The position numbers and the translations under genes were made by a program. Below, in pieces: positions 21,165 to 62,904 of a stretch of 64,000 nt of DNA. The first letter of the stretch is position 1. Each line of letters opens with the position of its first letter. The stretch covers positions 69,963-133,962 of the forward strand of contig CALQYS010000001.1 in the NCBI GenBank assembly GCA_943348755.1, written 5' to 3'. This DNA is from Candidatus Nomurabacteria bacterium. GTDB taxonomy: Bacteria > Patescibacteriota > Minisyncoccia > Phycocordibacterales > UBA9973. The notes under the pieces are model-generated. The model searched no databases, was not told the DNA's origin, and saw only the letters and a program-made list of their open reading frames with translations.

Positions 21165-22208
21165 TTAATTAAACCAATTTAATACTTCTTTTAAAATGAC
21201 CTGCTTATTCCCTTTCACTACTCTACCTATTTCGTAGCTCTCCACACCGCACTTTTTCAGGTGGCTCTGTATTGTATCTACAAAATCTTTCTTCACCACT
21301 GCCGTCATGCCTACTCCCATATTAAATGTCCTCATCATATCATTATCTTCCAGATCCCCAAATTTTTTCAATACCTTAAAAATGTTCAAAATTTTGATTT
21401 TACCGATATCAATCTCCGCATTTAAATTCTCAGGCAAGATTCTATTCAAATTTTCTTTTATTCCGCCTCCTGTGATGTGTGCGAGTCCTACCAATCCGTC
21501 GTTTCCAAACAAATCCTTCAAGCAGTTGTAGTAGCCAAAATGTGGAGTGAGGATACTTTCTATAAAATTCTTGCCATCAACTTTTTCTTTTAAAATTTCT
21601 GGACTCTTCTCCATTATTTTCTGCACAAGGGAGAAGCCATTTGTATGTATGCCTCTTGAAGCTAGACCCAAGACCACATCTCCTTCTTGTATTTTAGAGC
21701 CGTCGATTATTTTTTTCTTTTCTACCACGCCTACGATGCTAGCGGTCAAAATGTAAGTTCCTATGGCAAGTACACTCGGCTGTTCCGAGGTCTCGCCTCC
21801 AGTCAATACGCAGTCATTTTCTTTACATGCTTTAGAAAAAGCGGAAACCATTTTTAGGATTATTTCTTTGTCTATTTTCCCGCAGACGATGCAGTCTTGG
21901 ACAGATAGGGGTTTGGCTCCCATGACTATTGCATCATTAACTAGGTGATTTATTAAATCAAAACAAATGGTGTCTATACTTCTATGTTTTAAGGCCAACT
22001 TTTGCTTTGAGCCGGGCTCTTCTGTCTTAAACACTAGCACCGGTTCTTGATATTCAGGAAAAGATCCGTCGAACAAAGTAGCAAAAGCGCCTGCTTTGTT
22101 CAGCACGCGCGCATTTCCACTATTATTTAAACTTTTAGCCATTTCATTTTTCGTCGCATTGGCTTTGTCTATATCAACTCCTGAAGTTTTATACGACAAT
22201 TTCGGCAT
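21165..22208 (-). CDS. purM: AIR synthetase
   Basis: LSYKTSGVDIDKANAT N-terminus; start set at MPKLSYK, 1 nt after the purE stop. Confidence 0.9.
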   Translation of the reverse strand: MPKLSYKTSGVDIDKANATKNEMAKSLNNSGNARVLNKAGAFATLFDGSFPEYQEPVLVFKTEEPGSKQKLALKHRSIDTICFDLINHLVNDAIVMGAKPLSVQDCIVCGKIDKEIILKMVSAFSKACKENDCVLTGGETSEQPSVLAIGTYILTASIVGVVEKKKIIDGSKIQEGDVVLGLASRGIHTNGFSLVQKIMEKSPEILKEKVDGKNFIESILTPHFGYYNCLKDLFGNDGLVGLAHITGGGIKENLNRILPENLNAEIDIGKIKILNIFKVLKKFGDLEDNDMMRTFNMGVGMTAVVKKDFVDTIQSHLKKCGVESYEIGRVVKGNKQVILKEVLNWFN

Positions 22209-22209
22209 T

Positions 22210-22731
22210 TTATTTATTCTGAAGATATTGCTTGTATCCAACTTTTGAAAGCTTCTCCCCCTTCGTCTCTATCTCTTTGCTCATCTTTTCTTTGTAAGCG
22301 ATCAATTTTCTCTCTAAATCTTTATCAGACAAGGCGAGCATCTGTACAGCCAAAATACCAGCGTTTTTACCTCCATTTATCCCAACGGTGGCGACAGGCA
22401 CCCCGGGAGGCATCCCCACTGTAGAGAGGAGTGAATCAAGTCCGTCTAGACTTTTGGTTTTTATTGGAATTCCTATTACAGGTAGAGTAGTGAGTGAAGA
22501 TACTACACCAGCCAAATGAGCTGCTCCCCCTGCACCCGCAATAATTATTTTTAATCCACGATCTTTTACATTAGTTACATATTTATGCACGATCTCGGGA
22601 GAGCGATGCGCCGAAGCGACTGTGATCTCATAAGACACTCCGAACTCTTCCAGCACTTTCGCTGCCTCAGACATCACTTCTAGATCTGAATCCGAACCCA
22701 TGAGTATGGAAACCTTTGTGTCTTTTTTCAT
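22210..22731 (-). CDS. purE: PurE (N5-CAIR mutase / AIR carboxylase family)
   Basis: VSILMGSDSDLEVM...ASAHRSPE conserved PurE motifs; 173 aa. Confidence 0.9.
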   Translation of the reverse strand: MKKDTKVSILMGSDSDLEVMSEAAKVLEEFGVSYEITVASAHRSPEIVHKYVTNVKDRGLKIIIAGAGGAAHLAGVVSSLTTLPVIGIPIKTKSLDGLDSLLSTVGMPPGVPVATVGINGGKNAGILAVQMLALSDKDLERKLIAYKEKMSKEIETKGEKLSKVGYKQYLQNK

Positions 22732-22777
22732 TTGCTCTATCTTATCATTTTTTTAATTTAAAACAACCTAAAAACTA

Positions 22778-22826
22778 GCTTAAAACGAAAAGGACCCTGC
22801 ATCGCGCGATGCGCGCAATGCAGGGT
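22778..22826 (-). terminator. Intrinsic terminator (GC-rich hairpin plus U-tract) after the high-GC ORF
   Basis: Hairpin CCCTGCATCGCGCG-at-GCGCGCAATGCAGGG (14-bp stem, one mismatch) followed on the minus strand by UCCUUUUCGUUUUAAG. Confidence 0.5.
22781..22794. repeat. Direct repeat copy 1: TAAAACGAAAAGGA (identical 14-mer at 23765-23778)
   Basis: Exact 14/14 identity between the U-tract regions of the two terminators flanking the high-GC block. Confidence 0.7.
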
Positions 22827-22897
22827 ATCCTTGGTCGATCAGACGATTTCTCGTCCGGCCCAGAATCTACGTCTGAGCTCGGTGATGTGAGGCAGGC

Positions 22898-23566
22898 TTA
22901 CGCCGCCTGCAATGTGCCCTCACCACGGCTGGCCGGCTGGGGTTCGGTGGGCGCGTAGCCTTGTTCGGCGGTGCCGGGATCACCAGCAGGTCCAGCGGGC
23001 AGCTGATCGGCGTCACCAGGTTTGGCGGTCACAGTGGTGTTCTCAGCGCCGAGTTCTTCGCGGAGCTGCGGCGTAGCGGCCGGCTTCAAGAAATGCCTCG
23101 CCGCCAGTTCGTGGAACTTCGTCGCATCAATGAGCGGGTTGATGGCCGCCGCGTGAGTGATGCCGGTCAAGTTGAGGCTAAATTCTGCCTCGATGCCTGC
23201 GATCGTGGGGGCGTCGAATTCATAGCCTCCCGCGAATGCGTTCCATTTTCCGCGCTCAGTCACGTCGTCGAGTAAGTTGCCTTCTTGGCCCCGGATCCAC
23301 GCCAGGAACTCCGGAAACGACGGCAGGTGGTCGAGCGAGGTGATCCACTGGTTCAGGGCTTCACGCTTCACGTTCAAGCCCCGGGTCTTGTCCTGGTAGC
23401 CCTCGAGGATGAGCAGGTCGAACCCGTCACCGCGGCCCCATTCGTCAACCGTGGCCTTGATCATCTCGATCAGGATCTTCTGCCACAGGCGCAGGAGGTG
23501 GGCCCAACCAGTGAACACATCGGCAAAGCCAGACGGATGCAGCGGGAGTAGTTGTAGTGTTTTCAT
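22898..23566 (-). CDS. Hypothetical protein encoded in a high-GC (about 62%) block, with a Pro/Ala/Gly-rich C-terminal tail
   Basis: 222-aa ORF, the longest in an abrupt GC jump. It has its own promoter and terminator. No family recognised. Low-complexity tail (PGDADQLPAGPAGDPGTAEQGYAPTEPQPASRGEG) is typical of high-GC taxa. Confidence 0.5.
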   Translation of the reverse strand: MKTLQLLPLHPSGFADVFTGWAHLLRLWQKILIEMIKATVDEWGRGDGFDLLILEGYQDKTRGLNVKREALNQWITSLDHLPSFPEFLAWIRGQEGNLLDDVTERGKWNAFAGGYEFDAPTIAGIEAEFSLNLTGITHAAAINPLIDATKFHELAARHFLKPAATPQLREELGAENTTVTAKPGDADQLPAGPAGDPGTAEQGYAPTEPQPASRGEGTLQAA

Positions 23567-23723
23567 GCGTTTGTTTTTGTTGTATGTTTCTGATGACCAT
23601 CACGCGAACCTAAGTGGGTCCGTTTGTTGTGTGACAGTCAGCCAAATTACGATGTATTTACATGCATAATCTCGCCGACTGCCACAAATTTCACATCAAT
23701 TTTAAAGAACAAATAACTACGTT

Positions 23724-23751
23724 ATATTACATTTTTTTGCTATTTTGTCAA
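23724..23751 (-). promoter_or_regulatory. Sigma70-like promoter TTGACA-16-TAATAT oriented toward the high-GC ORF
   Basis: Minus strand reads TTGACAaaatagcaaaaaaatgTAATAT; ORF start about 150 nt downstream. Confidence 0.4.
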
Positions 23752-23764
23752 TATTGGATGGGTC

Positions 23765-23778
23765 TAAAACGAAAAGGA
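23765..23778. repeat. Direct repeat copy 2: TAAAACGAAAAGGA
   Basis: Identical to 22781-22794. Confidence 0.7.
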
Positions 23779-23807
23779 GCCGGCATACGATTAGAACGTA
23801 GTCCGGC
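23765..23807 (-). terminator. Intrinsic terminator after the small-peptide micro-operon
   Basis: Hairpin GCCGGcaTACG-attagaa-CGTAgtCCGGC followed on the minus strand by UCCUUUUCGUUUUAG. Confidence 0.45.
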
Positions 23808-23852
23808 TTCTCCTTGAGAGTTAATTAGTAACCCCCACAACTGTTTCTCGGT

Positions 23853-24026
23853 TCACGCCGAGTACATGTTCAGGAACAAGACGAGAATGCCCGTTCCTAG
23901 ATACACCAAACCTAAACCCATCCCAGTCACGAGGACTGGGAAGAGGATGGGGTGTTTCCTCCACCACAGGCGAAGCGCATACAAATGCAGCGTCTCGTCG
24001 ACCATCAACATTAGTTCTTCTTTCAT
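23853..24026 (-). CDS. Small hydrophobic peptide 3 (57 aa)
   Basis: Hand-translated: MKEELMLMVDETLHLYALRLWWRKHPILFPVLVTGMGLGLVYLGTGILVLFLNMYSA. One TM. Below the 60-aa ORF-track cutoff. Confidence 0.35.
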   Translation of the reverse strand: MKEELMLMVDETLHLYALRLWWRKHPILFPVLVTGMGLGLVYLGTGILVLFLNMYSA

Positions 24027-24038
24027 AGCTTTCGTGGG

Positions 24039-24143
24039 TTAATTTTTAATCACCTCCAACAATGCCAGGAATACGATTCCGGCAAATGCCAGCCCCAAGA
24101 GTAAGGGGCACCAAAACCCATATCGACGGATTATTTTTTCCAT
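24039..24143 (-). CDS. Small hydrophobic peptide 2 (34 aa)
   Basis: MEKIIRRYGFWCPLLLGLAFAGIVFLALLEVIKN; one TM; 12 nt upstream of peptide 3. Confidence 0.3.
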   Translation of the reverse strand: MEKIIRRYGFWCPLLLGLAFAGIVFLALLEVIKN

Positions 24144-24164
24144 ATTCTCCTTTTGGTTGTTGAG

Positions 24165-24263
24165 TTACCAGTGATTCTTAAGCCACACCGTTCCTGCTAT
24201 CAAGAGAACAAGCAGGACGAGACCAATTGTATGAGGAAGTGCAAACTCCTTGAATTGTTTCAT
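24165..24263 (-). CDS. Small hydrophobic peptide 1 (32 aa)
   Basis: MKQFKEFALPHTIGLVLLVLLIAGTVWLKNHW; one TM; first gene after the promoter at 24385-24413. Confidence 0.3.
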   Translation of the reverse strand: MKQFKEFALPHTIGLVLLVLLIAGTVWLKNHW

Positions 24264-24384
24264 TGTGAGTGCATTGTTTTGTTTTTTTAGTTTAGCTACG
24301 GAATACAAATTACAAAAAAATAAGCTGTATTCCACAGCCAAACACAACGTGAACCAAATTTTTAAAGAACCATCTTACCCTTGT

Positions 24385-24413
24385 ATTATATACTTTTTTA
24401 AGCCAAAAGTCAA
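24385..24413 (-). promoter_or_regulatory. Consensus-like sigma70 promoter TTGACT-17-TATAAT driving the small-peptide micro-operon
   Basis: Minus strand reads TTGACTtttggcttaaaaaagtaTATAAT, starting 15 nt downstream of the purH stop. The roughly 115-nt leader contains an 8-bp stem-loop (24300-24333). Confidence 0.45.
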
Positions 24414-24427
24414 TAGAACCTTAAATC

Positions 24428-30937: not shown

Positions 30938-32221
30938 TTAGTTCTTGCCTAACGCAGACTTGCCTATATCTTTTCTATACTGCATCCCTTCAAATGATAT
31001 TTTTTCGATAGCTTTGTAAGCTTTATCAAGTGCTTCCTTCATAGAGCTTCCAGTCGCTGAGACTCCAAGTACTCGTCCGCCGTTAGTTGTGAGGTCTTGC
31101 CTAACAATTTTAGTGCCCGCATGAAAGATAATGACGTCTGGCTGCATACCTGCTTCCATTATTCCAGAAATTACTTTGCCTTTTTCGTAACTCCCTGGAT
31201 ATCCACCTGAAGCAATAGCAATATTACATGCATATAGCTCTTTCCACTTTATTTTTAAGTCAGTAATTTTCCCATCGATACTGGCGTCGACGATATCGAG
31301 CAAGTCAGTATCAAGCAGTCGCATATATGTCTGAGTCTCAGGGTCGCCAAAACGCGCATTGAATTCAAAAACCTTTGGGCCTTCGGGGGTTAGCATTATT
31401 CCCGGATACAAAATGCCCACAAATGGTCTGCCCTCCCTTGCCATGCCTTCGATTGTTGGTTTGATGATTTCTTTCTCAATCCTTTTCATCATAGCGCTGT
31501 CTATGAATGGTAGTGGCGCGATGACTCCCATGCCACCAGTGTTCGGACCGACGTTGCCGTCAAAGATACGCTTGTGGTCTTGAGAACAAGGAAACATCTT
31601 AAAAGACTTTCCGTCAGAAATGGCGTGGGCTGAGATCTCTATTCCAGATAAGTATTCTTCGATAACTACTTCATTCCCCGCGTTACCGAAAACTTTTTTT
31701 ACGAGTACATCTTCGAGAGACCTCAAGGCTTCTTCCTTAGTTTGAGCCACAGTCACCCCTTTGCCGAGCGCGAGTCCGCTTGCTTTGATGACCACAGGTA
31801 CTGCCCCCTTTTCAACATACTTTTTTGCCTTCTCAAAATCATTAAATACTTCGTATTTTGCAGTGGGGACACCATGCCTCTTCATGAAGTCCTTCGCATA
31901 CGCTTTGGACCATTCGAGCTCGCTCGCAGCCTTTGTGGGGCCCCAGATGCGCAAACCTTCAGCCCTAAATGCATCGACTATACCTAGCGAGAGAGGATCA
32001 TCAGGCAAAGCCAGTGTTAGATCTATCTTTTCTCTCTTAGCGAATTCTACTAGTTTTGGGATATCTGTGGCAGAAATGGTAACGTTTGTCCCTAATTCAA
32101 GGGTGCCGGCATTACCTGGAGCAAAGTATAAACTTCCGGCTCGTTCAGACTGAGACACTTTCCACCCCACGGCATGTTCTCTACCTCCCCCGCCAATTAT
32201 TAAAATTTTCTGTTTTTGCAT
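30938..32221 (-). CDS. purD: Phosphoribosylamine-glycine ligase
   Basis: MQKQKILIIGGGGREHA N-terminus; ATP-grasp core; 427 aa. Confidence 0.95.
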   Translation of the reverse strand: MQKQKILIIGGGGREHAVGWKVSQSERAGSLYFAPGNAGTLELGTNVTISATDIPKLVEFAKREKIDLTLALPDDPLSLGIVDAFRAEGLRIWGPTKAASELEWSKAYAKDFMKRHGVPTAKYEVFNDFEKAKKYVEKGAVPVVIKASGLALGKGVTVAQTKEEALRSLEDVLVKKVFGNAGNEVVIEEYLSGIEISAHAISDGKSFKMFPCSQDHKRIFDGNVGPNTGGMGVIAPLPFIDSAMMKRIEKEIIKPTIEGMAREGRPFVGILYPGIMLTPEGPKVFEFNARFGDPETQTYMRLLDTDLLDIVDASIDGKITDLKIKWKELYACNIAIASGGYPGSYEKGKVISGIMEAGMQPDVIIFHAGTKIVRQDLTTNGGRVLGVSATGSSMKEALDKAYKAIEKISFEGMQYRKDIGKSALGKN

Positions 32222-32234
32222 CAGATTATATAAA

Positions 32235-32972
32235 TTAATATGCCAATGCTGTATCGTTATTTACACTTCTGACAGCTTGATTATAATAATATTTAACTCT
32301 ATCTAAAAAATGTGATAAAGAATTAGGATCCACATTTTCATAGCCAAATTCATATAGTGTATTATTTAATCTTTCCAAATTTCTAATTTCTACATGTTCT
32401 ATGGGTACTGCCTTGATTAAATTATCCATATCCCCGAAAACGAAATCTATCTCTGTTGGCTCATCTTTAGTTAAAATAAAGAAAGGTACATCATCTTTAT
32501 AAATTTCAATTCCCTCATGCGCTGCTTTTAAGCCTTCAGTAAAAAATTCTTCCAGAAATCTATCTAAATTAGAAAATTCTTTTATTTTTGGTCTACCAAA
32601 GCTTTCTACCGTGACCCTTCTGTGATTTTTGCTTCCAATACATATTTGATTATCTTTAAAACCCGTTGTCATCAATATACTCTCATTATCTTCACCTATT
32701 CTAAATGTTAGGAACACCCTTAAACCAGCCTTTTTTGCTCGAGAATAATTTTCAAATGCAAAGCTAGCCCTTTGAGTCGCACTACGCCACTCATTTGCTA
32801 AATATTTTTTTATTATAAATCTTTTTTTATGACCACCGATTTCAACCACTGCGTCAAAAATATTTCCGAAATTTCCTCCGTTAATTTTCTTTTCACTAAT
32901 TATTTCTACTTCAGTTTTCCCCCCAGTATCTTTTCTGAAAGAAAACCCAGTTGGTTCAAATTCGTTACTCAT
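32235..32972 (-). CDS. Hypothetical protein with protein-kinase-like motifs, embedded in the pur operon
   Basis: 245 aa. NGGNFGNIFDAVV resembles a GxGxFGxV glycine loop, followed by KRFIIKK (VAIK-like lysine) and a later IDFVFGD (DFG-like). This is reading of motifs only, not a confirmed fold. Confidence 0.55.
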   Translation of the reverse strand: MSNEFEPTGFSFRKDTGGKTEVEIISEKKINGGNFGNIFDAVVEIGGHKKRFIIKKYLANEWRSATQRASFAFENYSRAKKAGLRVFLTFRIGEDNESILMTTGFKDNQICIGSKNHRRVTVESFGRPKIKEFSNLDRFLEEFFTEGLKAAHEGIEIYKDDVPFFILTKDEPTEIDFVFGDMDNLIKAVPIEHVEIRNLERLNNTLYEFGYENVDPNSLSHFLDRVKYYYNQAVRSVNNDTALAY

Positions 32973-32984
32973 TTTTTTATTATC

Positions 32985-33596
32985 CTATAATTTTCCCAAA
33001 ACGTCCACATATAATTTATTTTCTTTTTTCTTAAGCCTTGAGTATAAAGATTCCACATTATCATTTTCTTCTACTTTTTCAAAAACTCTGCCTAAAACTG
33101 GCCCGAAATCAAAGTTTAAGGTCAAAAAGTGGATAGAGGAGCCGGCGAAGGTAGATTTTTGGTCTAAAAAGTTCTGGATAGCCTTAGTGGCGAGCATCCC
33201 TTTATTCCAAAGTGCCTTTGTGCCGTCTGGATTCTGTATTTCACCATTCGTAGTGTCTGGGATAAGCCCTGGGTGCAAATTCAAGATTTTATTTGGAAAA
33301 GCGGTGATGACTTCATTTAGAATTATTTTTTTCCAGCCAGCAAGGCACATGTAGTCGGGATTTATTTTTTGTAAAAGTGGAAGTAAAGTTTCCTTCTTCG
33401 AACATATTTCTATTTTCAGATTATGCTTTCTGGCTCGCTCCAACCCTGGAGTATTTTCCTTATCAGAGATCACAGCCGAGATTTCGGCATTAATTTTTCC
33501 AGATTCAACTCCGTCAATTATTGCTTGCAGGTTTGTGCCAGTGCCGGCATCAGAAATAAGAATGACAAGTTTCTTTTTAGTCTTTTGGGACATCAT
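32985..33596 (-). CDS. purN: GAR formyltransferase
   Basis: KLVILISDAGTGTNLQAIID N-terminus; formyltransferase fold; overlaps purF by 20 nt. Confidence 0.9.
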   Translation of the reverse strand: MMSQKTKKKLVILISDAGTGTNLQAIIDGVESGKINAEISAVISDKENTPGLERARKHNLKIEICSKKETLLPLLQKINPDYMCLAGWKKIILNEVITAFPNKILNLHPGLIPDTTNGEIQNPDGTKALWNKGMLATKAIQNFLDQKSTFAGSSIHFLTLNFDFGPVLGRVFEKVEENDNVESLYSRLKKKENKLYVDVLGKL

Positions 33597-35025
33597 AATT
33601 TATCTCTTTTTCTCTTTCGTGTATTGGTATCGGATAAACTCCATCAAAGGACGCAAGAGAAAATCTAGATTTTGGCAGTCCGGTAGCCGCTATCATGCCC
33701 TCGATAGAGAGATATGAGACGGATGTTGCCCCCAAGAAATCCTTTATTTCTTTCATTGTCTTGTGCGAGGCGATAAGCTCTGATTGATTTGGGGTGTCAA
33801 TCCCATAAAAGTCTGGGAATTTTATCGGGGCAGAGCTGACCAAGAAGTGCACTTCTTTAGCACCAGCATCGAAAAGCATTTTTACGATTTGTTTACTTGT
33901 GGTTCCACGAACTATAGAATCATCCATCACGGCGATTTTTTCCCCTTCAATCACTTTTCGAAGTGGGCTTAGCTTCATCCTCACTTTTTCTGCGCGTAAT
34001 TCTTGAGTGGGCTCGATGAAGGTGCGGTTGATGTAGCGGTTTTTAGAAATGGCCATTTCAAATGGGATGCCTGACTCTTCTGCATAGCCTATAGCAGCTG
34101 AAATAGCTGATTCCGGCACTGGGATGATCATATCAACCTCATTTATACCGTGTCTGTAGTGCTTTTTGGTCTCTCGGGCCAGCATGCGGCCGAGGTTTTT
34201 CCTTACTTCATATACTGGTCTGTCTAACATCACACTGTCGTAGCGGGCAAAATAAACAAACTCAAAAATATCAAATTTAGGCTTAGCCTTTGCCACTTTT
34301 TTGCTTTTGACCACGATTTTACCCTTGCTTCTTTGGACGATTACCATTTCTCCTGGTTCTATTTCTCTGACAAATTTTGCTCCAAGCGTGTCTAGCGCAC
34401 ATGTCTCAGAACAAATTATTATCTCTTCGCCCTTTTTACCTAGGACCAAGGGACGAATCCCGCAAGGATCACGGAATCCGACCAAGATGTCCAAACCAAG
34501 TGCTACACAAGAAAATGCCCCAGTGAAAAGCGGATACGTCCTTGCGATAGCATCCGGGAGAGATTGGCCCTTTTTCATATACACGGCGATGGCCTGCGTC
34601 ATGAGCTGGGAGTCAGACATGTCTTTCGTCAGTTCGTTGTTCTTTTTTAAGAATTTAACCAATTTTTCGATACTAGGCAGATTGCCATTGTGCCCCAAAG
34701 CGAAAAGATTATCAAAAAGAAAGGGCTGAGCATATTCGACGTGGTTGCCGTTTGAAGTGGAGTAGCGGTTGTGTCCGATCGCAGCAAAACCTGGGAGCTT
34801 TTTTAAAATTTCTTCGGTGTAAATTTGGCTCACTAATCCTTCATTTTTATGTAAGCGAAGCTTGTTGCCATCAGTTGTGGCAATGCCAGAGTGTTCTTGT
34901 CCACGATGTTGAAGAGAAAATAGTCCGAAGTAAGTCTCTCTAGTTATTCTATTTTCCTTTTCCAGCGCTGGAGAATCAATATTTCCAAAAATTCCAAAAA
35001 CCGCGCACTTTTCGTTAAGATCCAT
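33577..35025 (-). CDS. purF: Amidophosphoribosyltransferase
   Basis: CAVFGIFG Ntn-amidotransferase catalytic Cys after a short propeptide; PRTase domain with VMDDSIVRGTT. Confidence 0.95.
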   Translation of the reverse strand: MDLNEKCAVFGIFGNIDSPALEKENRITRETYFGLFSLQHRGQEHSGIATTDGNKLRLHKNEGLVSQIYTEEILKKLPGFAAIGHNRYSTSNGNHVEYAQPFLFDNLFALGHNGNLPSIEKLVKFLKKNNELTKDMSDSQLMTQAIAVYMKKGQSLPDAIARTYPLFTGAFSCVALGLDILVGFRDPCGIRPLVLGKKGEEIIICSETCALDTLGAKFVREIEPGEMVIVQRSKGKIVVKSKKVAKAKPKFDIFEFVYFARYDSVMLDRPVYEVRKNLGRMLARETKKHYRHGINEVDMIIPVPESAISAAIGYAEESGIPFEMAISKNRYINRTFIEPTQELRAEKVRMKLSPLRKVIEGEKIAVMDDSIVRGTTSKQIVKMLFDAGAKEVHFLVSSAPIKFPDFYGIDTPNQSELIASHKTMKEIKDFLGATSVSYLSIEGMIAATGLPKSRFSLASFDGVYPIPIHEREKEINYDVPKD

Positions 35026-35887: not shown

Positions 35888-37555
35888 TCAATACACCTCT
35901 TGCTGGTAACATTTCTCGCAGTAAATTTGGTATATTTTCTGATCCTCGGGTCTATAAGATGTTTGTATCAGATTACCACATTTAGCACAATTTCCACTCC
36001 ATAAGTCACGCGGGTTTCTTTTACTCATTCTGGCTTCATGTCGGCAGTTAAAGCACTTAGCTGGCAGGGCTAATCTATTCTTTTTATAAAAATTCACCTC
36101 TCTATTTATTAATCTGTAATTTTTCTCGCAATTTTTACAAGTTAGAATTTCATTAACTAATGCATCGCTGTATTCTTCAGGATTTTTAGGTAAATTTTCG
36201 TATTCTATTGTCCCCTGTCCAGTTGTGCTTGGTATATTATCTTTCCATTTAAAACCTTGCCTCGTAGCTTCCTCTTTTGTAATTGGCATGTACTCATTTA
36301 CTATCGCTTCATTATAAGCAAATGGGCTAATAAATGCTGGAAAGAATTTACCCCAGTCTCCACTTTCTTTCATCTGCGCGATTATTTTTTCTTTTAGCGT
36401 AAAGTATTCTTCCTTTGAATATTGTTTATTTAAAATACAGTAAGATTTCTTGCGTAGACCATAACATCCAAAAACTTCATTACAGTTGTGACAATTATTT
36501 GAGTAATAAATATTATGGCAATCTACTATCATCTCAGAGGCTATGGCTATGTTGCTGTTGCTTATAGTCATAGCCTGATAACATTCAGATAGATCGCTGG
36601 TGAAAGAAATATCATACGAATCTATGGCTTCTCTAACTGTAAAGCAATGCCTAGAGTTTTCACCGCTTTTTATATCAAAGGAATCATGTACATTGTGTGC
36701 ATTATATATATGGTTACCAGAAACATCATTATTGTGAGAGCCAAAGAAAGAGCGCTGAGGAGTTATTTTACGTAAACTCTCCATCTCTTTTAAAATATAT
36801 TCGATAGAAGACTTTTCATTTAGGGGGTGTTCTAATAAGAATTTTTTGTATTCTTCTTTTGTAACTTGTTTATTGAAAATATGATAGGACTTGTTTACTT
36901 GCCCCACGCATCCGATGCAATTCAAACAGTTTCGACAATCAAAAAGTCCAATGGAGTCTACACAAGCTTCACATTCTTGTGAATAGAAAAGTTTCGCTGA
37001 GCCTAGGCAATCAACACAGTCGTAACAAGATTCTGATTTAAATAAATATAAATTATCAATAGAATCTCGGCAATTCCAAACTATGTGTCCATAATCGCAG
37101 TCTTCGTTCTCAAGAGCACCAAAAAGTAAATAGCAATTTTTACAGTCAATTATTTGATTAGTGTAATCGCAATTAACACTTCTAACGGCATTACGAGCCG
37201 GATGTGGTACAGCGTTAAAAAGAAGAGCGAGTTGCTTAAAAAATGACTTACTTAGATCAACATCTACAGCATAATCCATGGGTTCCCAGCTATCCCCCCA
37301 CCAGATCTCATTATCATAAACTGGGAATTTTGTATCTTCGTTGTACATCGAGATGATCATTTTACCGGATTTACTGCAGGGTCTTTTGTATAAAGTCTTA
37401 AAATTCCTAAAGGATGCACGAAGTTGCTGACGACATTGTGGGCACTGTTCCGGGGCAGGTATTCCCATCTTTTCATAAAAGCCAAAATCATCCGGCTCGA
37501 TGACGAAATCTTCGTTGCACTTTTTACATATTCGATTTTCGCTCTTGTGTTCCAT
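35888..37555 (-). CDS. Cysteine-rich protein, paralog B
   Basis: 555 aa. N-terminus CKKCNEDFVIEPDDFGFYEKMGIPAPEQCPQCRQQLR; C-terminus ...CFNCRHEARMSKRNP...YCEKCYQQEVY. Same architecture as paralogs A and C; third N-terminal zinc ribbon is degenerate. Confidence 0.75.
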   Translation of the reverse strand: MEHKSENRICKKCNEDFVIEPDDFGFYEKMGIPAPEQCPQCRQQLRASFRNFKTLYKRPCSKSGKMIISMYNEDTKFPVYDNEIWWGDSWEPMDYAVDVDLSKSFFKQLALLFNAVPHPARNAVRSVNCDYTNQIIDCKNCYLLFGALENEDCDYGHIVWNCRDSIDNLYLFKSESCYDCVDCLGSAKLFYSQECEACVDSIGLFDCRNCLNCIGCVGQVNKSYHIFNKQVTKEEYKKFLLEHPLNEKSSIEYILKEMESLRKITPQRSFFGSHNNDVSGNHIYNAHNVHDSFDIKSGENSRHCFTVREAIDSYDISFTSDLSECYQAMTISNSNIAIASEMIVDCHNIYYSNNCHNCNEVFGCYGLRKKSYCILNKQYSKEEYFTLKEKIIAQMKESGDWGKFFPAFISPFAYNEAIVNEYMPITKEEATRQGFKWKDNIPSTTGQGTIEYENLPKNPEEYSDALVNEILTCKNCEKNYRLINREVNFYKKNRLALPAKCFNCRHEARMSKRNPRDLWSGNCAKCGNLIQTSYRPEDQKIYQIYCEKCYQQEVY

Positions 37556-37602: not shown

Positions 37603-39264
37603 CTAGTATATCTCCTGTTGATAACATTTCTCACAGTATACTATTTCTGGACGATCTGGCGAATAGCTTGTTTCGAATTCATTCATACAGTCTTGATTCA
37701 TGCATTTTTGATGCCAAAGCTTTCTTTCACCAGCAAGTTTTATTCTCTTTTCATGTCTACAATTTGGACATTTTCGTGGTATAGGCAAGCCCATCTTTCG
37801 GTAAAGATTGAGCTCGTAAGGCACTATTTTGTAATTTTTTCCACATTCACAAACCAAAACCTCTTTCATTATTTCGTCTTTTACATCATCTATGTTGTCT
37901 GGCAAAAGATCCATATCTACGGTTTCCTGCTTGTATGTGTTTGTATTTTTTTCCCACCAAGGTAGAGAAAGTTTTTCACAATCCTCCTTTGTTAATGGAA
38001 AATATTCTTGAGCTACTGTCTCATTATATCCAAAATTACTTATACCGATCGGGAAAAATTCTCCCCATTCGCCAGTTTTTTTCATATGTTCTATTATTTT
38101 ATTTTTAAGGATGAGATATTCTTCTTTGGAATATTGTTTGTTTAAAATACAATATTTCTTTTTTGACATGCCTATACAACCGAATAAATCAGAAGAATTG
38201 TTGCATTTATCGCAATACCAAATGTCATTCGAGTAATGTGAGGCATTGCAGAAGCCGGAGCTGCCTAAATTCAAAGTGCTTATTAGTTCGATATTAAAAG
38301 ATGGTTTATATAAGGAAAAATCTAGGTCATAACATTCTTTCGCGTCCAATACATCGCATAGATATTTTCCATTTTCAGCATTACTGACATCGAAACTCTC
38401 TTTTACATTCTTACAATTAAAAAGATCATCTCCTGTGCAGTTCGTACTATTTATTAGATTAGCGAACTTCGTAATCGCTTTTTTGGAATACTTCCCGAAT
38501 TCTTTTTTCAGATTTTCTAAAGCAGAAAAAGATTTTTTATTAAAGCCCGAAACAATTTTATTGTATTCTTCCCTGCTGTATGGTTTATTAAAAATATGGT
38601 ATGACTTATTTCTCAAGTTCCAGCACCCAAAACAATCGGTACAACTCCTACAATCATACATAAAATGACAATTGCTGCAGTCCGTGCACTTATTTAGAAA
38701 AGATGAGCCGTAGATTTTATGGCAATTCACGCATTCGTAATTTAATTCAGAATTGTAAACAAAAGAGCAATCTATGCAGTCCTTGGAGTATTTAATAAAT
38801 TTACAAAAGTAGCAATATTCGTTTTTCTCTCCAGCTATATCAAAGTAACAATAATTATCATCTCCGCAATAGCTTACATAATCGCTATTTTTACAATTTA
38901 CGATGTCCAGTGAAAGTGTCGGGACTTTTTTATAAAGATCTTTAAATTGTTCAAAAAATGGCTTGGAAAAATTAAAATCTTTCCCATACGAAAGCGGGTT
39001 AGACTTATCGCTCCACCAGCAGGATGGACACCAGACGGCTTGCTCCTTATCTCCATGATAATATGAAATTATTTTTTGATTACATGAATTACAATTACGC
39101 CAGTAAAAAACCCTTTCGTTTCTGATGGCGAGTCTGCGCTGATGCCGGCATTCTGGGCAAAATGTCGGTGGTGGGACTTTTATTTTTTCATAAAATCCAA
39201 AATCATCCGGTTCGATCACGAATTCCTTTTTACAATTCTGGCAAATTTTATTTTCCGCTTTCAT
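37603..39264 (-). CDS. Cysteine-rich protein, paralog C
   Basis: 553 aa. N-terminus CQNCKKEFVIEPDDFGFYEKIKVPPPTFCPECRHQRR is near-identical to paralog A. Start codon overlaps the purL stop (TAATG). Confidence 0.75.
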   Translation of the reverse strand: MKAENKICQNCKKEFVIEPDDFGFYEKIKVPPPTFCPECRHQRRLAIRNERVFYWRNCNSCNQKIISYYHGDKEQAVWCPSCWWSDKSNPLSYGKDFNFSKPFFEQFKDLYKKVPTLSLDIVNCKNSDYVSYCGDDNYCYFDIAGEKNEYCYFCKFIKYSKDCIDCSFVYNSELNYECVNCHKIYGSSFLNKCTDCSNCHFMYDCRSCTDCFGCWNLRNKSYHIFNKPYSREEYNKIVSGFNKKSFSALENLKKEFGKYSKKAITKFANLINSTNCTGDDLFNCKNVKESFDVSNAENGKYLCDVLDAKECYDLDFSLYKPSFNIELISTLNLGSSGFCNASHYSNDIWYCDKCNNSSDLFGCIGMSKKKYCILNKQYSKEEYLILKNKIIEHMKKTGEWGEFFPIGISNFGYNETVAQEYFPLTKEDCEKLSLPWWEKNTNTYKQETVDMDLLPDNIDDVKDEIMKEVLVCECGKNYKIVPYELNLYRKMGLPIPRKCPNCRHEKRIKLAGERKLWHQKCMNQDCMNEFETSYSPDRPEIVYCEKCYQQEIY

Positions 39265-61641: not shown

Positions 61642-62904
61642 ATGAAAAAAAAGAAAATTATTACTCTATCGGATTATTTCCCACAAGGCACAGAATATTT
61701 CTATTCATATCCCGTAGGAGATAGCATCTATCATTTTTTCAAACCAGAGGATCCCGTTGCTGAAGAGATGATTTCAGCCAGACTTTTGACTTGTGCAGGA
61801 GAAGGTATGAAGGTCATAGTATATAAAAGTATATTAAGATATAAATCCTTAGAACTCTTACGGAAAAATTCCGATATCCCTTTTATACCAAAGAAACAGA
61901 TAATAGTTTTACCGCCGACTATCAATGAAAAAACCTTAGATTCTAAAAAGAATAAGCTTGTCACAGATGCTCTACTTAAACAAACTTCCCACCGTAACTT
62001 AGTTGTGGCTCAGCCCATAATGGACGAACGCCTTTTGGATGAATATCAGATTGACCCAAAATTGAGCATTTGGCTTAATGATAAGATATACCTTGATCAA
62101 TACGTTGACTCTGAATTTTTACCACAAAGATATGCCCAATTTAGGAACGGACAAGACTTTTTCCACTCAACTGAGAAAATACCTGTTCCTTGCGTGGTAA
62201 AGGTGTCTGCTTCCAGTTCTGGTCAGGGTACAAGAATATGCTTGAACTCAATTGACCTCAAGAAAGCGAAAAAAGATTTCAAAAAGAGAGTAGGAACTTT
62301 GTTTATCGAAGAATACATTTCTTATATTCATAATTTTGGTTTTCAGTTTGGCATACCTTTCGACAAGAAAAAAGCTCCTCATATTATTGGTTATAACCAC
62401 CAAGTCACTGCTGCAGATGGGGAATTCCTCGGTGGGTTTATTTTTAAGAAAGAAAAACACAAAGAAACAAAGACCATAAAAAAGTTTATCACCAAAGAAA
62501 TTTTACCAAAAATTCAGAAAATGGGTTGGCATGGGGTGGGTGGCTTTGATGTATTGCTCAAATCTAATGGAAAATTCTATATTATAGATAGCAACTTCCG
62601 TACTACTGGTATGACCGCATATATTTTTCTTTCCAGAAATAAACTAATTTCAAAATCACTTGTTAGTTTTACCGCGACATTTCGTGGCACTCGGGAAGAA
62701 TTTGTAGAGAAAGTGCTATCTCTGAATAAGGGCGAAGACAAGATACTTACCATAGTATCTCTGTCTAAAAAAGGAAATGAGTACCGTTTTAATGGCGCTC
62801 TTTTGTTTGATAAAAAGGAAGAAACACCTCAATTAGCCTCTATACTTATAGGAAGAGGTATCAAATCAGAAGTTTTACAAATGCTAAGATTCTGGGAGTG
62901 TTAG
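61642..62904 (+). CDS. ATP-grasp domain protein (orphan ligase)
   Basis: VVKVSASSSGQGTRIC and GVGGFDVLLKSNGKFYIIDSNFRTTGMT fit ATP-grasp B-loop and C-terminal (E/D-x-N) motifs. N-terminus is unlike PurK, Ddl or RimK. Confidence 0.6.
   Translation: MKKKKIITLSDYFPQGTEYFYSYPVGDSIYHFFKPEDPVAEEMISARLLTCAGEGMKVIVYKSILRYKSLELLRKNSDIPFIPKKQIIVLPPTINEKTLDSKKNKLVTDALLKQTSHRNLVVAQPIMDERLLDEYQIDPKLSIWLNDKIYLDQYVDSEFLPQRYAQFRNGQDFFHSTEKIPVPCVVKVSASSSGQGTRICLNSIDLKKAKKDFKKRVGTLFIEEYISYIHNFGFQFGIPFDKKKAPHIIGYNHQVTAADGEFLGGFIFKKEKHKETKTIKKFITKEILPKIQKMGWHGVGGFDVLLKSNGKFYIIDSNFRTTGMTAYIFLSRNKLISKSLVSFTATFRGTREEFVEKVLSLNKGEDKILTIVSLSKKGNEYRFNGALLFDKKEETPQLASILIGRGIKSEVLQMLRFWEC

What the first reader, a model, noticed from the sequence alone, without database searches (positions are those of the whole stretch)
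32235..32972. Kinase-like unknown gene embedded between purN and purD
A 245-aa protein with GxGxFGxI (NGGNFGNIF), a downstream K-rich strand (KRFIIKK) and a DFG-like IDFVFGD sits inside the purine operon, with 12-13-nt gaps to both neighbours. It is not any canonical pur enzyme; purK is absent from the locus. It could be a small-molecule kinase or a regulatory factor tied to purine synthesis.
Basis: partly seen in the sequence, partly recalled or inferred. Interest (0 to 1): 0.5.

Follow-up and report, generated by a model that had tools for sequence, protein, structure and literature searches.

The report
Accessory mini-kinase inside a purine operon
The unknown gene between purN and purD encodes a very small protein with a protein-kinase fold from an undescribed family seen so far almost only in ultra-small (CPR/Patescibacteria) bacteria, but it is an optional passenger in the purine operon, not a missing purine enzyme.

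Summary
Window 32235-32972 (- strand) is a real 245-aa gene, 12 nt after purN and 13 nt before purD, with GxGxFG, a lysine strand and a DFxxGD motif.

It belongs to an unnamed family (237 clusters at 50% identity); every named genome is Patescibacteria. The family keeps the Gly-loop, the ATP lysine (K55, 100%) and an Asp cluster (D161, D176, D181, D183). It lacks the alpha-C glutamate, the HxD histidines and the catalytic-loop Asn.

The purine link is weak. Eight distinct clusters show purN-X-purD, but four of four sampled close relatives (PurD 77-87% identical) lack X, and one has purN fused to purD. Other family members sit in a suf operon, beside a recombinase, an IMPDH-like gene or prfB. 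X evolves fastest among the cluster's enzymes apart from purM, and has the lowest GC3 in the window.

Best reading: an accessory, co-transcribed, Mg-ATP-binding atypical kinase or ATPase with an unknown, probably macromolecular, target. It is not a PurK substitute.

The parts
32235..32972 (-). Gene X: 245-aa minimal protein-kinase-like protein (stop codon included)
32859..32885 (-). Codons 30-38, INGGNFGNI: glycine-rich ATP loop (GxGxFGxV equivalent; G33 = PKA G52, G36 = G55)
   Evidence: G33 97%, F/Y35 78%, G36 83%, V/I38 84% in 115 sequences. Aligned to the PKR Gly-loop by hmmsearch and to the PKA Gly-loop by hhalign.
32808..32810 (-). Codon K55: predicted ATP-anchoring beta3 lysine (PKA K72 equivalent)
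   Evidence: 100% conserved in 115 sequences. Aligned to the VAIK lysine of PKR.
32490..32492 (-). Codon D161: the only conserved acidic residue of the catalytic-loop segment, two residues before strand beta7
   Evidence: 98% conserved. Strand positions come from DSSP of the model. Assigning it to PKA D166 or to the N171 position is inference.
32421..32447 (-). Codons 176-184, DFVFGDMDN: Asp-rich Mg-loop (DFG equivalent), strand beta8 plus the following turn
   Evidence: D176 94%, F177 89%, G180 93%, D181 100%, D183 91%.
32379..32381 (-). Codon N198: conserved Asn at the start of the first C-terminal helix, role unknown
   Evidence: 95% conserved. Helix 192-213 in the model.
32985..33596 (-). 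purN (GAR transformylase), upstream neighbour; its stop is 12 nt before the X start
   Evidence: Pfam Formyl_trans_N, E 5e-29.
30938..32221 (-). purD (GAR synthetase), downstream neighbour; it starts 13 nt after the X stop
   Evidence: Pfam GARS_N, GARS_A and GARS_C.

Best explanation
X is a genuine, co-transcribed but dispensable accessory gene lodged at the purN-purD junction of a Patescibacteria (Nomurabacteria/Paceibacteria-type) purine operon.

It encodes a stripped-down protein-kinase-like domain of the RIO/Bud32 size class: an N-lobe sheet with a canonical Gly-loop and beta3 lysine, an alpha-C helix, a short hinge (ILMT), and a C-lobe reduced to alpha-E, the beta6-beta8 catalytic/Mg region and two long helices.

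Proposed mechanism:
1. Mg-ATP is bound by the Gly-loop, K55 and the invariant Asp cluster (D161, D176, D181, D183).
2. The gamma-phosphate is then hydrolysed or transferred through a rewired catalytic centre that lacks the alpha-C Glu, the HxD histidines and the catalytic-loop Asn.
3. Because the C-lobe has no enclosed substrate pocket, the target is more likely a macromolecule or partner protein (as for RIO, Bud32, HopBF1 and ArkI) than a purine intermediate.

Shown: the gene, the fold, residue conservation, patchy distribution, fast evolution and atypical composition. Inferred: ATP binding, catalysis and the type of target.
For: Fold:
- AF2 pLDDT 87, pTM 0.82.
- Foldseek top hits are PRPK/Bud32 (E 5e-6) and Rio1.

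Sequence:
- The family profile hits only protein-kinase Gly-loop/VAIK regions in PDB.
- The only recurrent sub-threshold Pfam hits are PK_Tyr_Ser-Thr (10/75) and Pkinase (8/75).
- K55 and D181 are 100% conserved. G33, D161, D176, D183 and N198 are 91-98% conserved. Such conservation argues for a working nucleotide/metal site.

Co-transcription:
- The gaps are 12 and 13 nt. There are 8-nt overlaps with purN (L001, L002) and with purD (L002).
- No - strand terminator lies between purF and purD.

Accessory status:
- More than 120 PurD clusters are at least 67% identical to the window's, against only 13 X homologs.
- L036 (PurD 87%), L037 (81%) and L039 (77%) have purN-purD with 8-36 nt between them and no X. 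L038 (77%) has a purN-purD fusion. No family-HMM hit occurs in those loci.
- X mean pairwise identity is 52.5%, against 67-84% for the other enzymes of the cluster (purD, purN, purF, purL, purQ, purE, purC, purB, purA, guaA, guaB, purH); purM (40.0%) is the exception.
- X has the lowest GC (0.313) and GC3 (0.207, z -2.1) of 43 window genes.
- Family members occur in a suf operon, next to a serine recombinase, an IMPDH/GMPR-like gene, prfB-ftsEX, an H+-PPase and pilT.
- Non-pur members nest inside the pur-linked clade.
- The junction is an insertion hotspot: an IS200-like transposase in L007, a hydrolase in L010, and GC-rich palindromes in L038 and L039.
Against: - No biochemical evidence exists for ATP binding or catalysis.
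- Three of the six catalytic key residues of the superfamily are absent or relocated (E91, N171 and possibly D166), so it could be catalytically dead.
- The purN-X-purD arrangement is kept in eight distinct clusters whose PurD proteins are only 63-80% identical. One non-pur member sits directly upstream of an IMPDH/GMP-reductase-like gene. Some purine-related role is therefore not excluded.
- No coordinates of the model were available, so residue-to-residue equivalence with RIO/Bud32 active sites is inferred from secondary-structure register only.
- Only four X-less clusters were inspected directly.
- No link to phages, plasmids or defence systems was found that would explain the mobility.
Confidence: 0.5

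Rival explanations
1. X is an accessory small-molecule kinase, for example for salvage of a nucleoside or base derivative, or for inactivation of an antibiotic or antimetabolite. It would be analogous in lifestyle to APH/MPH resistance kinases. It sits in the pur operon either by chance or because its substrate is a purine analogue.
For: - The patchy, fast-evolving, compositionally atypical profile is typical of resistance or accessory kinases.
- Several contexts touch nucleotide metabolism: pur, an IMPDH/GMPR-like gene, and pyrG/LOG.
Against: - It lacks the HxDxxxxN (Brenner) motif that defines the APH/choline-kinase group.
- The C-lobe is only about 110 residues with two helices after the Mg-loop, so there is little room for the helical substrate-binding subdomain of that group.
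- The best matches are macromolecule-directed minimal kinases.
- No plasmid or phage copies were found.
Confidence: 0.2
2. X is a pseudokinase. It would be a nucleotide-binding or purely structural scaffold that associates with neighbouring enzymes (PurN/PurD, SufB/SufS and others) without catalysing phosphotransfer.
For: - No conserved alpha-C Glu, no HxD histidines and no Asn at D161+5.
- By secondary-structure register D161 sits where PKA N171 sits, which would leave no catalytic base (inference).
- Overlapping or near-abutting start and stop codons with neighbours suggest stoichiometric co-expression.
Against: - 100% conservation of K55 and D181, and more than 90% conservation of three further Asp residues and N198, across about 25-30% identical sequences. 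This is more than scaffolds usually keep.
- Neighbours differ between family members, so there is no constant partner.
Confidence: 0.15
3. X is a purine-pathway enzyme. It would be either a non-orthologous replacement for PurK (ATP + bicarbonate + AIR to N5-CAIR), or an ATP-dependent helper of the GAR steps, for example making formyl phosphate for PurN.
For: - PurE is class I-like (AGGAAHLAG) in the window and in all X-bearing clusters, and no purK is seen in the window or the loci.
- X is the only unassigned enzyme-like gene placed among the pur genes.
- purN-X-purD synteny occurs in eight clusters.
Against: - Closest relatives with the same purK-less cluster and gene order lack X entirely, and in several purN is fused to purD.
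- Family members occur where no pur genes are nearby.
- X is kept next to non-pur genes inside the pur-linked clade.
- The fold is PKL, not ATP-grasp.
- X evolves much faster than the pur enzymes.
- Class I-like PurE without PurK is common in high-CO2 anaerobes and judged not to need a missing enzyme (PMC3261824).
- PurN keeps its N-H-D catalytic residues (comparison with E. coli PurN is from memory) and canonical PurH is present. Together these imply ordinary formyl-folate chemistry.
Confidence: 0.04

Closest known systems
RIO kinases (Rio1/Rio2; e.g. A. fulgidus Rio1, PDB 1zp9/1zth)
   Different: Only 14-17% identity. No hit to the Pfam RIO1 model. X lacks the catalytic-loop Asp/Asn pair and the alpha-C Glu. 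RIO proteins are archaeal/eukaryotic ribosome-maturation factors, whereas X is bacterial (CPR), patchy and operon-embedded.
Bud32/PRPK (KEOPS subunit; PDB 7szc, 4ww5, 8k20)
   Different: 10-14% identity. No Kae1/TsaD or Cgi121-like neighbour occurs in any locus. No Pfam hit. The HxDxxxxN and alpha-C Glu are missing in X.
HopBF1 and ArkI minimal kinases (PDB 6pwd, 7vnx)
   Different: No sequence similarity. X has no secretion signal and no tRNA-related context.
APH/MPH/choline-kinase-like small-molecule kinases
   Different: X lacks the HxDxxxxN motif and the helical substrate subdomain. No mobile-element, plasmid or phage copies were found.
PurK (N5-CAIR synthetase)
   Same: Would fill the only gap in the window's purine pathway. 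ATP-dependent.
   Different: PurK has an ATP-grasp fold and X has a PKL fold. X is absent from sister clusters that equally lack purK.

Membership tests
Protein-kinase-like (PKL) superfamily | Bilobal kinase fold: N-lobe beta-sheet plus alpha-C, hinge, and a C-lobe with the catalytic/Mg-loop hairpin | tested here: met
Protein-kinase-like (PKL) superfamily | Key residues G52 (Gly-loop) and K72 (beta3 Lys), as listed by Kannan et al. 2007 (PMC1821047) | tested here: met
   G33 97% and K55 100% conserved. Aligned to the PKR Gly-loop and VAIK.
Protein-kinase-like (PKL) superfamily | Key residue E91 (alpha-C Glu pairing with K72) | tested here: not met
   No column of helix 65-81 has more than 50% Asp or Glu. 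E74 of the window protein is only 29% conserved. The loss is tolerated in some active PKL families.
Protein-kinase-like (PKL) superfamily | Key residues H158/H164 and D166 (HxD catalytic loop) | tested here: inconclusive
   One conserved Asp (D161, 98%) lies in the loop between beta6 and beta7, and there is no conserved His. By strand register D161 may occupy the N171 position rather than D166. No coordinates were available to decide.
Protein-kinase-like (PKL) superfamily | Key residue N171 (catalytic-loop Asn, Mg ligand) | tested here: not met
   Position D161+5 is Leu/Ile. The nearest polar column (168) is a mixture of N, D, S and E.
Protein-kinase-like (PKL) superfamily | Key residue D184 (DFG Asp, Mg ligand) | tested here: met
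   D176-F177 (94%/89%) and G180-D181 (93%/100%) lie on and just after beta8. Which Asp is the true equivalent was not resolved.
RIO kinase family (Pfam RIO1) | Significant match to the family sequence model | tested here: not met
   No RIO1 hit for X at E <= 1, nor among the most frequent sub-threshold hits of the 75 members scanned.
Bud32/PRPK family | Sequence-model match and association with Kae1/TsaD-type partners | tested here: not met
   No Pfam hit. No Kae1/TsaD-like neighbour in any locus whose neighbours were annotated.
APH/choline-kinase-like small-molecule kinases | HxDxxxxN catalytic motif and a helical substrate-binding subdomain | tested here: not met
   No conserved His or Asn around D161. 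Only two helices follow the Mg-loop. No APH hit in Pfam.
PurK (N5-CAIR synthetase) | ATP-grasp fold, and presence wherever class I PurE works without high CO2 | tested here: not met
   The fold is PKL. X is absent from four of four sister clusters with the same purK-less layout.
Core de novo purine operon gene | Conserved presence across related pur clusters | tested here: not met
   More than 120 close PurD clusters against 13 X homologs. Seven PurN-PurD fusions appear among the listed PurD hits. X-less junctions were confirmed.

The most novel reading that the evidence does not exclude
X-family proteins are portable, operon-embedded regulatory kinases or ATPases of CPR bacteria. Each copy would modify or gate the enzymes it is co-translated with: PurN/PurD here, SufB/SufS in L013, a GuaB/GuaC-like enzyme in L009. 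That would give genome-reduced cells, which are poor in classical regulators, a plug-in way to control a pathway with ATP. The rewired active site (an Asp cluster instead of HRD...N and the alpha-C Glu) would then represent a new catalytic solution within the kinase fold.
Probability: 0.1. Interest if true: 0.7.

Novelty: new variant of a known kind. Interest (0 to 1): 0.38.

Why it matters
The result adds an uncharacterised family to the protein-kinase-like superfamily. No source in the searched collections names it, and every named genome that carries it is Patescibacteria. The family is as small as Bud32 and keeps the ATP-binding half of the catalytic machinery while replacing the rest, so it is a natural test case for which parts of the kinase core are dispensable.

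It also corrects a tempting annotation error. Tight embedding in a biosynthetic operon, even when conserved in eight clusters, does not make a gene part of the pathway. Here sister operons show the gene is optional.

For CPR biology, it flags the purN-purD junction as a recombination and insertion hotspot. It also shows a purK-less, class-I-PurE purine pathway that works without a substitute enzyme.

Tried and rejected
**Searches that found nothing**
- Direct sequence annotation: Pfam, NCBIfam and PDB phmmer gave nothing for X.
- PHROGs, PADLOC, viral contigs, and phage and plasmid records gave no relatives. A phage, defence or plasmid origin therefore has no support.
- Source annotations carry no names.
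- Literature searches on CPR kinases and CPR purine synthesis found no description of the family.

**Analyses that did not work**
- hhalign of the family against the PKA sequence aligned only the Gly-loop, so C-lobe residue mapping by sequence failed.
- The AFDB fold library was unavailable.
- Broad alignments A2 and A3 were too diverse for locus scanning. I used A1 and a motif-selected alignment A4 instead.
- The longer family members gave no informative partner domain, only a weak Pkinase N-lobe hit and a probable mis-called GH3 fragment.
- The search for X remnants at X-less purN-purD junctions gave only low-complexity noise. Loss versus gain is undecided.

**Hypotheses rejected**
- PurK-analogue hypothesis: rejected on the X-less sister clusters and the literature.
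- PurT-like or formate hypothesis: rejected because canonical PurH and an intact PurN catalytic triad imply folate chemistry anyway.
- The 61642-62904 ATP-grasp ORF as a hidden PurK: rejected, because its best match is the S. aureus L-amino-acid ligase 7r8p.

Full report
**1. The observation**

The ORF is exactly as described: window 32235-32972, - strand, ATG start, 245 aa. It lies in a co-directional run purF (33577-35025), purN (32985-33596), X, purD (30938-32221). There are 12 nt between the purN stop and the X start, and 13 nt between the X stop and the purD start. The three quoted motifs are present (INGGNFGNI 30-38, KRFIIKK 50-56, IDFVFGD 175-181).

The surrounding 25 kb holds every de novo purine gene except purK:
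- purB, purC, purM, purE, purH and guaA on the - strand
- guaB and purA on the + strand
- purD, X, purN, purF and purQ, then two Zn-finger genes of about 555 aa, then purL

No - strand terminator-like site separates purF, purN, X and purD, and promoter-like matches are not enriched over shuffles. X is therefore almost certainly co-transcribed with its neighbours.

**2. It is a real gene of an unnamed family**

Pfam, NCBIfam and PDB sequence searches give nothing significant. The word-indexed search of 5.8 billion proteins finds 13 homologs at 42-52% identity, none carrying a Pfam domain; no source names the five looked up. An exhaustive HMMER pass over 1.84 billion cluster representatives finds 237 clusters at E <= 1e-3, 156 at <= 1e-10 and 24 at <= 1e-30. 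Nearly all are 220-260 aa.

Five of the six genome hits with organism names are Patescibacteria MAGs (Nomurabacteria, Paceibacterota). The sixth is labelled only 'bacterium'.

Across 115 full-length members the strongly conserved positions are:
- G33 (97%), G36 (83%) and K55 (100%)
- the AGLKVFPT[FY]R segment (82-91) and ILMT (99-102)
- D161 (98%), D176 (94%), G180 (93%), D181 (100%), D183 (91%) and N198 (95%)

**3. Fold**

An AlphaFold2 model built on the 13-sequence alignment is confident (mean pLDDT 87.1, pTM 0.82).
- Foldseek independently ranks PRPK/Bud32 (E 5e-6, TM 0.54) and Rio1 first.
- At sequence level the family profile hits only the Gly-loop/VAIK region of PKR, Tie2 and EphB1 in PDB (E 0.05-0.7).
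- When 75 members are scanned one by one against Pfam, the only recurrent sub-threshold families are PK_Tyr_Ser-Thr (10/75) and Pkinase (8/75).

**4. Active-site anatomy**

I used the ten key PKL residues of Kannan et al. 2007 (PMC1821047) as the standard.
- G52 and K72 are present (G33, K55).
- E91 is absent. No acidic column exists in helix 65-81, and the window's E74 is only 29% conserved.
- No conserved His corresponds to H158 or H164.
- There is a single conserved Asp (D161) in the beta6-beta7 loop, and no Asn five residues later.
- The Mg-loop is an unusual D176-F-x-x-G180-D181-x-D183 cluster.

In the model's DSSP, D161 lies two residues before beta7 and D181 two residues after beta8. 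These are the places occupied by N171 and D184 in PKA (my inference from known PKA secondary structure). The classical catalytic base may therefore be missing or relocated.

The absolute conservation of K55 and D181 over sequences that are only about 25-30% identical argues for a functional nucleotide/metal site. Kannan et al. note that nine of the ten residues can be lost in active families. I could not obtain model coordinates, so the residue equivalences remain inference.

**5. Is it tied to purine synthesis?**

For a link:
- purN-X-purD occurs in eight distinct clusters: the window, L001, L002/3, L004-6/17, L007/18, L008/19/20, L010/22 and L011.
- In two of them X overlaps purN by 8 nt, and in one of these it also overlaps purD by 8 nt.
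- One non-pur member (L009, 49% identical) sits 17 nt upstream of an IMPDH/GMP-reductase-family gene.

Against a link:
(a) The window's PurD has more than 120 database clusters at 67% identity or above, and seven of the listed hits are PurN-PurD fusion proteins.
(b) I inspected four close relatives. L036 (PurD 87%) and L039 (77%, on an 813-kb contig) have purN and purD 9 and 36 nt apart. L037 (81%) has them 8 nt apart once an unmerged scaffold overlap is read through. L038 (77%) has them fused. Gene order is otherwise the same, and no family-HMM hit (E <= 10) occurs anywhere in these loci.
(c) Other family members lie inside a suf operon (L013), 4 nt before a large serine recombinase (L024/25), and near prfB-ftsEX (L012, L015), an H+-PPase (L028), a PilT-like ATPase (L035) and an EamA transporter (L026).
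(d) In an NJ tree (no support values) the IMPDH-linked and recombinase-linked members nest within the pur-linked clade.
(e) Within the same loci X averages 52.5% pairwise identity. The other enzymes of the cluster average 67-84% (for example purN 68.6, purD 70.7, purL 73.3, purA 79.0, guaB 83.7); only purM (40.0) is lower.
(f) X has the lowest GC (0.313) and GC3 (0.207, z = -2.1) of 43 genes in the window, while purN and purD have GC3 of 0.39 and 0.43.
(g) The junction itself is plastic. L007 has an IS200-like Y1 transposase between purN and X. L010 has an alpha/beta-hydrolase between X and purD. L038 and L039 have GC-rich palindromes at the junction.

Together these findings show that X is an optional insert, not a pathway component.

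**6. The purK question**

PurE is class I-like in the window and in all X-bearing clusters that include purE (AGGAAHL[AP]G). No purK is visible. The only other ATP-grasp ORF in the window (61642-62904) matches the S. aureus L-amino-acid ligase 7r8p (E 4e-15), not PurK or PurT (PMC9486568).

However, the sampled X-less sister loci show no purK either. Brown et al. 2011 (PMC3261824) document class I-like PurE without PurK in many high-CO2 anaerobes. They explicitly do not take it as a sign of a missing gene. The PurK-replacement idea is therefore unlikely (about 4%).

**7. Most likely function**

I commit to the following reading. X is an accessory, co-transcribed, Mg-ATP-binding atypical kinase or ATPase of the RIO/Bud32 architectural class.
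- The C-lobe is only about 110 residues, with two helices after the Mg-loop. The small-molecule kinases of this superfamily carry a helical substrate subdomain that this leaves little room for.
- The nearest structural relatives all act on macromolecules or as partner-gated ATPases. I therefore favour a macromolecular target or partner (confidence about 0.5 for the whole statement).
- The rivals are an accessory small-molecule kinase (0.2), a pseudokinase scaffold (0.15) and a purine enzyme (0.04).
- Nothing links the family to phages, plasmids or known defence systems.

**8. Novelty and verdict**

The fold and superfamily are known. The family is not captured by any model library searched and has a non-canonical catalytic constellation. 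I found no paper that describes it. I class it as a new variant of a known kind. Interest is moderate (0.38): it is a neat new minimal kinase family and a cautionary example for guilt-by-association annotation, but it has no demonstrated function and is not the missing purine enzyme the context suggested.

Noticed in passing
window 35888-37555 and 37603-39264 (- strand): Two paralogous, Cys-rich proteins of about 555 aa, with weak treble-clef zinc-finger hits at both ends, sit between purQ and purL. Homologs occur in one to four copies inside the pur clusters of relatives (L002, L010, L020, L037-L039), so they are far more constant companions of the CPR pur operon than X. Function unknown.
   Followed up: partly
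window 22732-24427 (ORF 22898-23566, - strand): A 1.7-kb insert lies between purE and purH and contains a 222-aa ORF with GC 0.617 and GC3 0.74, in a 40% GC genome (z > 4). It is flanked by a 22-nt direct repeat (22781-22802 and 23765-23786, 91% identical). Relatives have purH and purE 54 nt apart (L007). There was no Pfam hit and no plasmid match. It is either foreign DNA or an assembly chimera.
   Followed up: partly
window 61642-62904 (+ strand): A 420-aa ATP-grasp protein whose best match is the S. aureus L-amino-acid ligase 7r8p (E 4e-15). The hit to the PurK/PurT-type Pfam domain is only sub-threshold. It is not PurK, and its substrate is unknown.
   Followed up: partly
window 22210-22731 (purE), and purE in L002, L007, L008, L010, L011, L020: All PurE proteins carry the class I-like AGGAAHL[AP]G motif, yet no purK is present in the window or in any pur locus examined. 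The lineage probably relies on non-enzymatic N5-CAIR formation at high CO2.
   Followed up: partly
P0161, P0164, P0215, P0216, P0217, P0225, P0245; L038 6001-7887: PurN-PurD fusion proteins (609-663 aa) are common among close relatives. In L038 the linker is read through a GC-rich palindrome (CCTCACCCC...GGGGTGAGG). L039 has a similar GC-rich hairpin in the 36-nt purN-purD spacer. These look like REP-like elements at an insertion hotspot.
   Followed up: partly
L007 687-1352 (- strand); L010 10739-11476 (+ strand): Other inserts occur at the same junction. L007 has an IS200-like Y1 transposase between purN and X. L010 has a 245-aa alpha/beta-hydrolase (Hydrolase_4/Peptidase_S9) between X and purD.
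   Followed up: yes
purF 33577-35025 and purM 21165-22241 versus relatives: The cluster is mosaic. The window's PurF is 80-84% identical to that of L036, L038 and L039 but only 52-57% identical to that of L001, L002, L004, L010, L011, L020 and L037. PurM is 23-38% identical in some relatives and 70% in others. This suggests xenologous replacement or recombination within the operon.
   Followed up: no
L036 3537-3872 and 7355-7696: In the closest relative (PurD 87%) the pur cluster looks decayed. Only fragments of purQ (111 aa) and purB (113 aa, C-terminal domain) remain, and purE, purM and purC are missing between purD and the purB fragment.
   Followed up: no
L013 8557-13943: A distant X-family member (29% identical) is embedded in a suf Fe-S operon (sufB/D, X', an unannotated 192-aa ORF, sufS, sufU, sufC). 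This is a second example of the family sitting inside a core-metabolism operon.
   Followed up: partly
window 32280-32307 (- strand): The best sigma-70-like match on the - strand (TTTAGA-16-TATAAT, 10/12) lies inside the 3' end of X, about 60 nt upstream of purD. It could be an internal promoter brought in with X, but promoter-like counts are not above shuffles in this AT-rich stretch.
   Followed up: no
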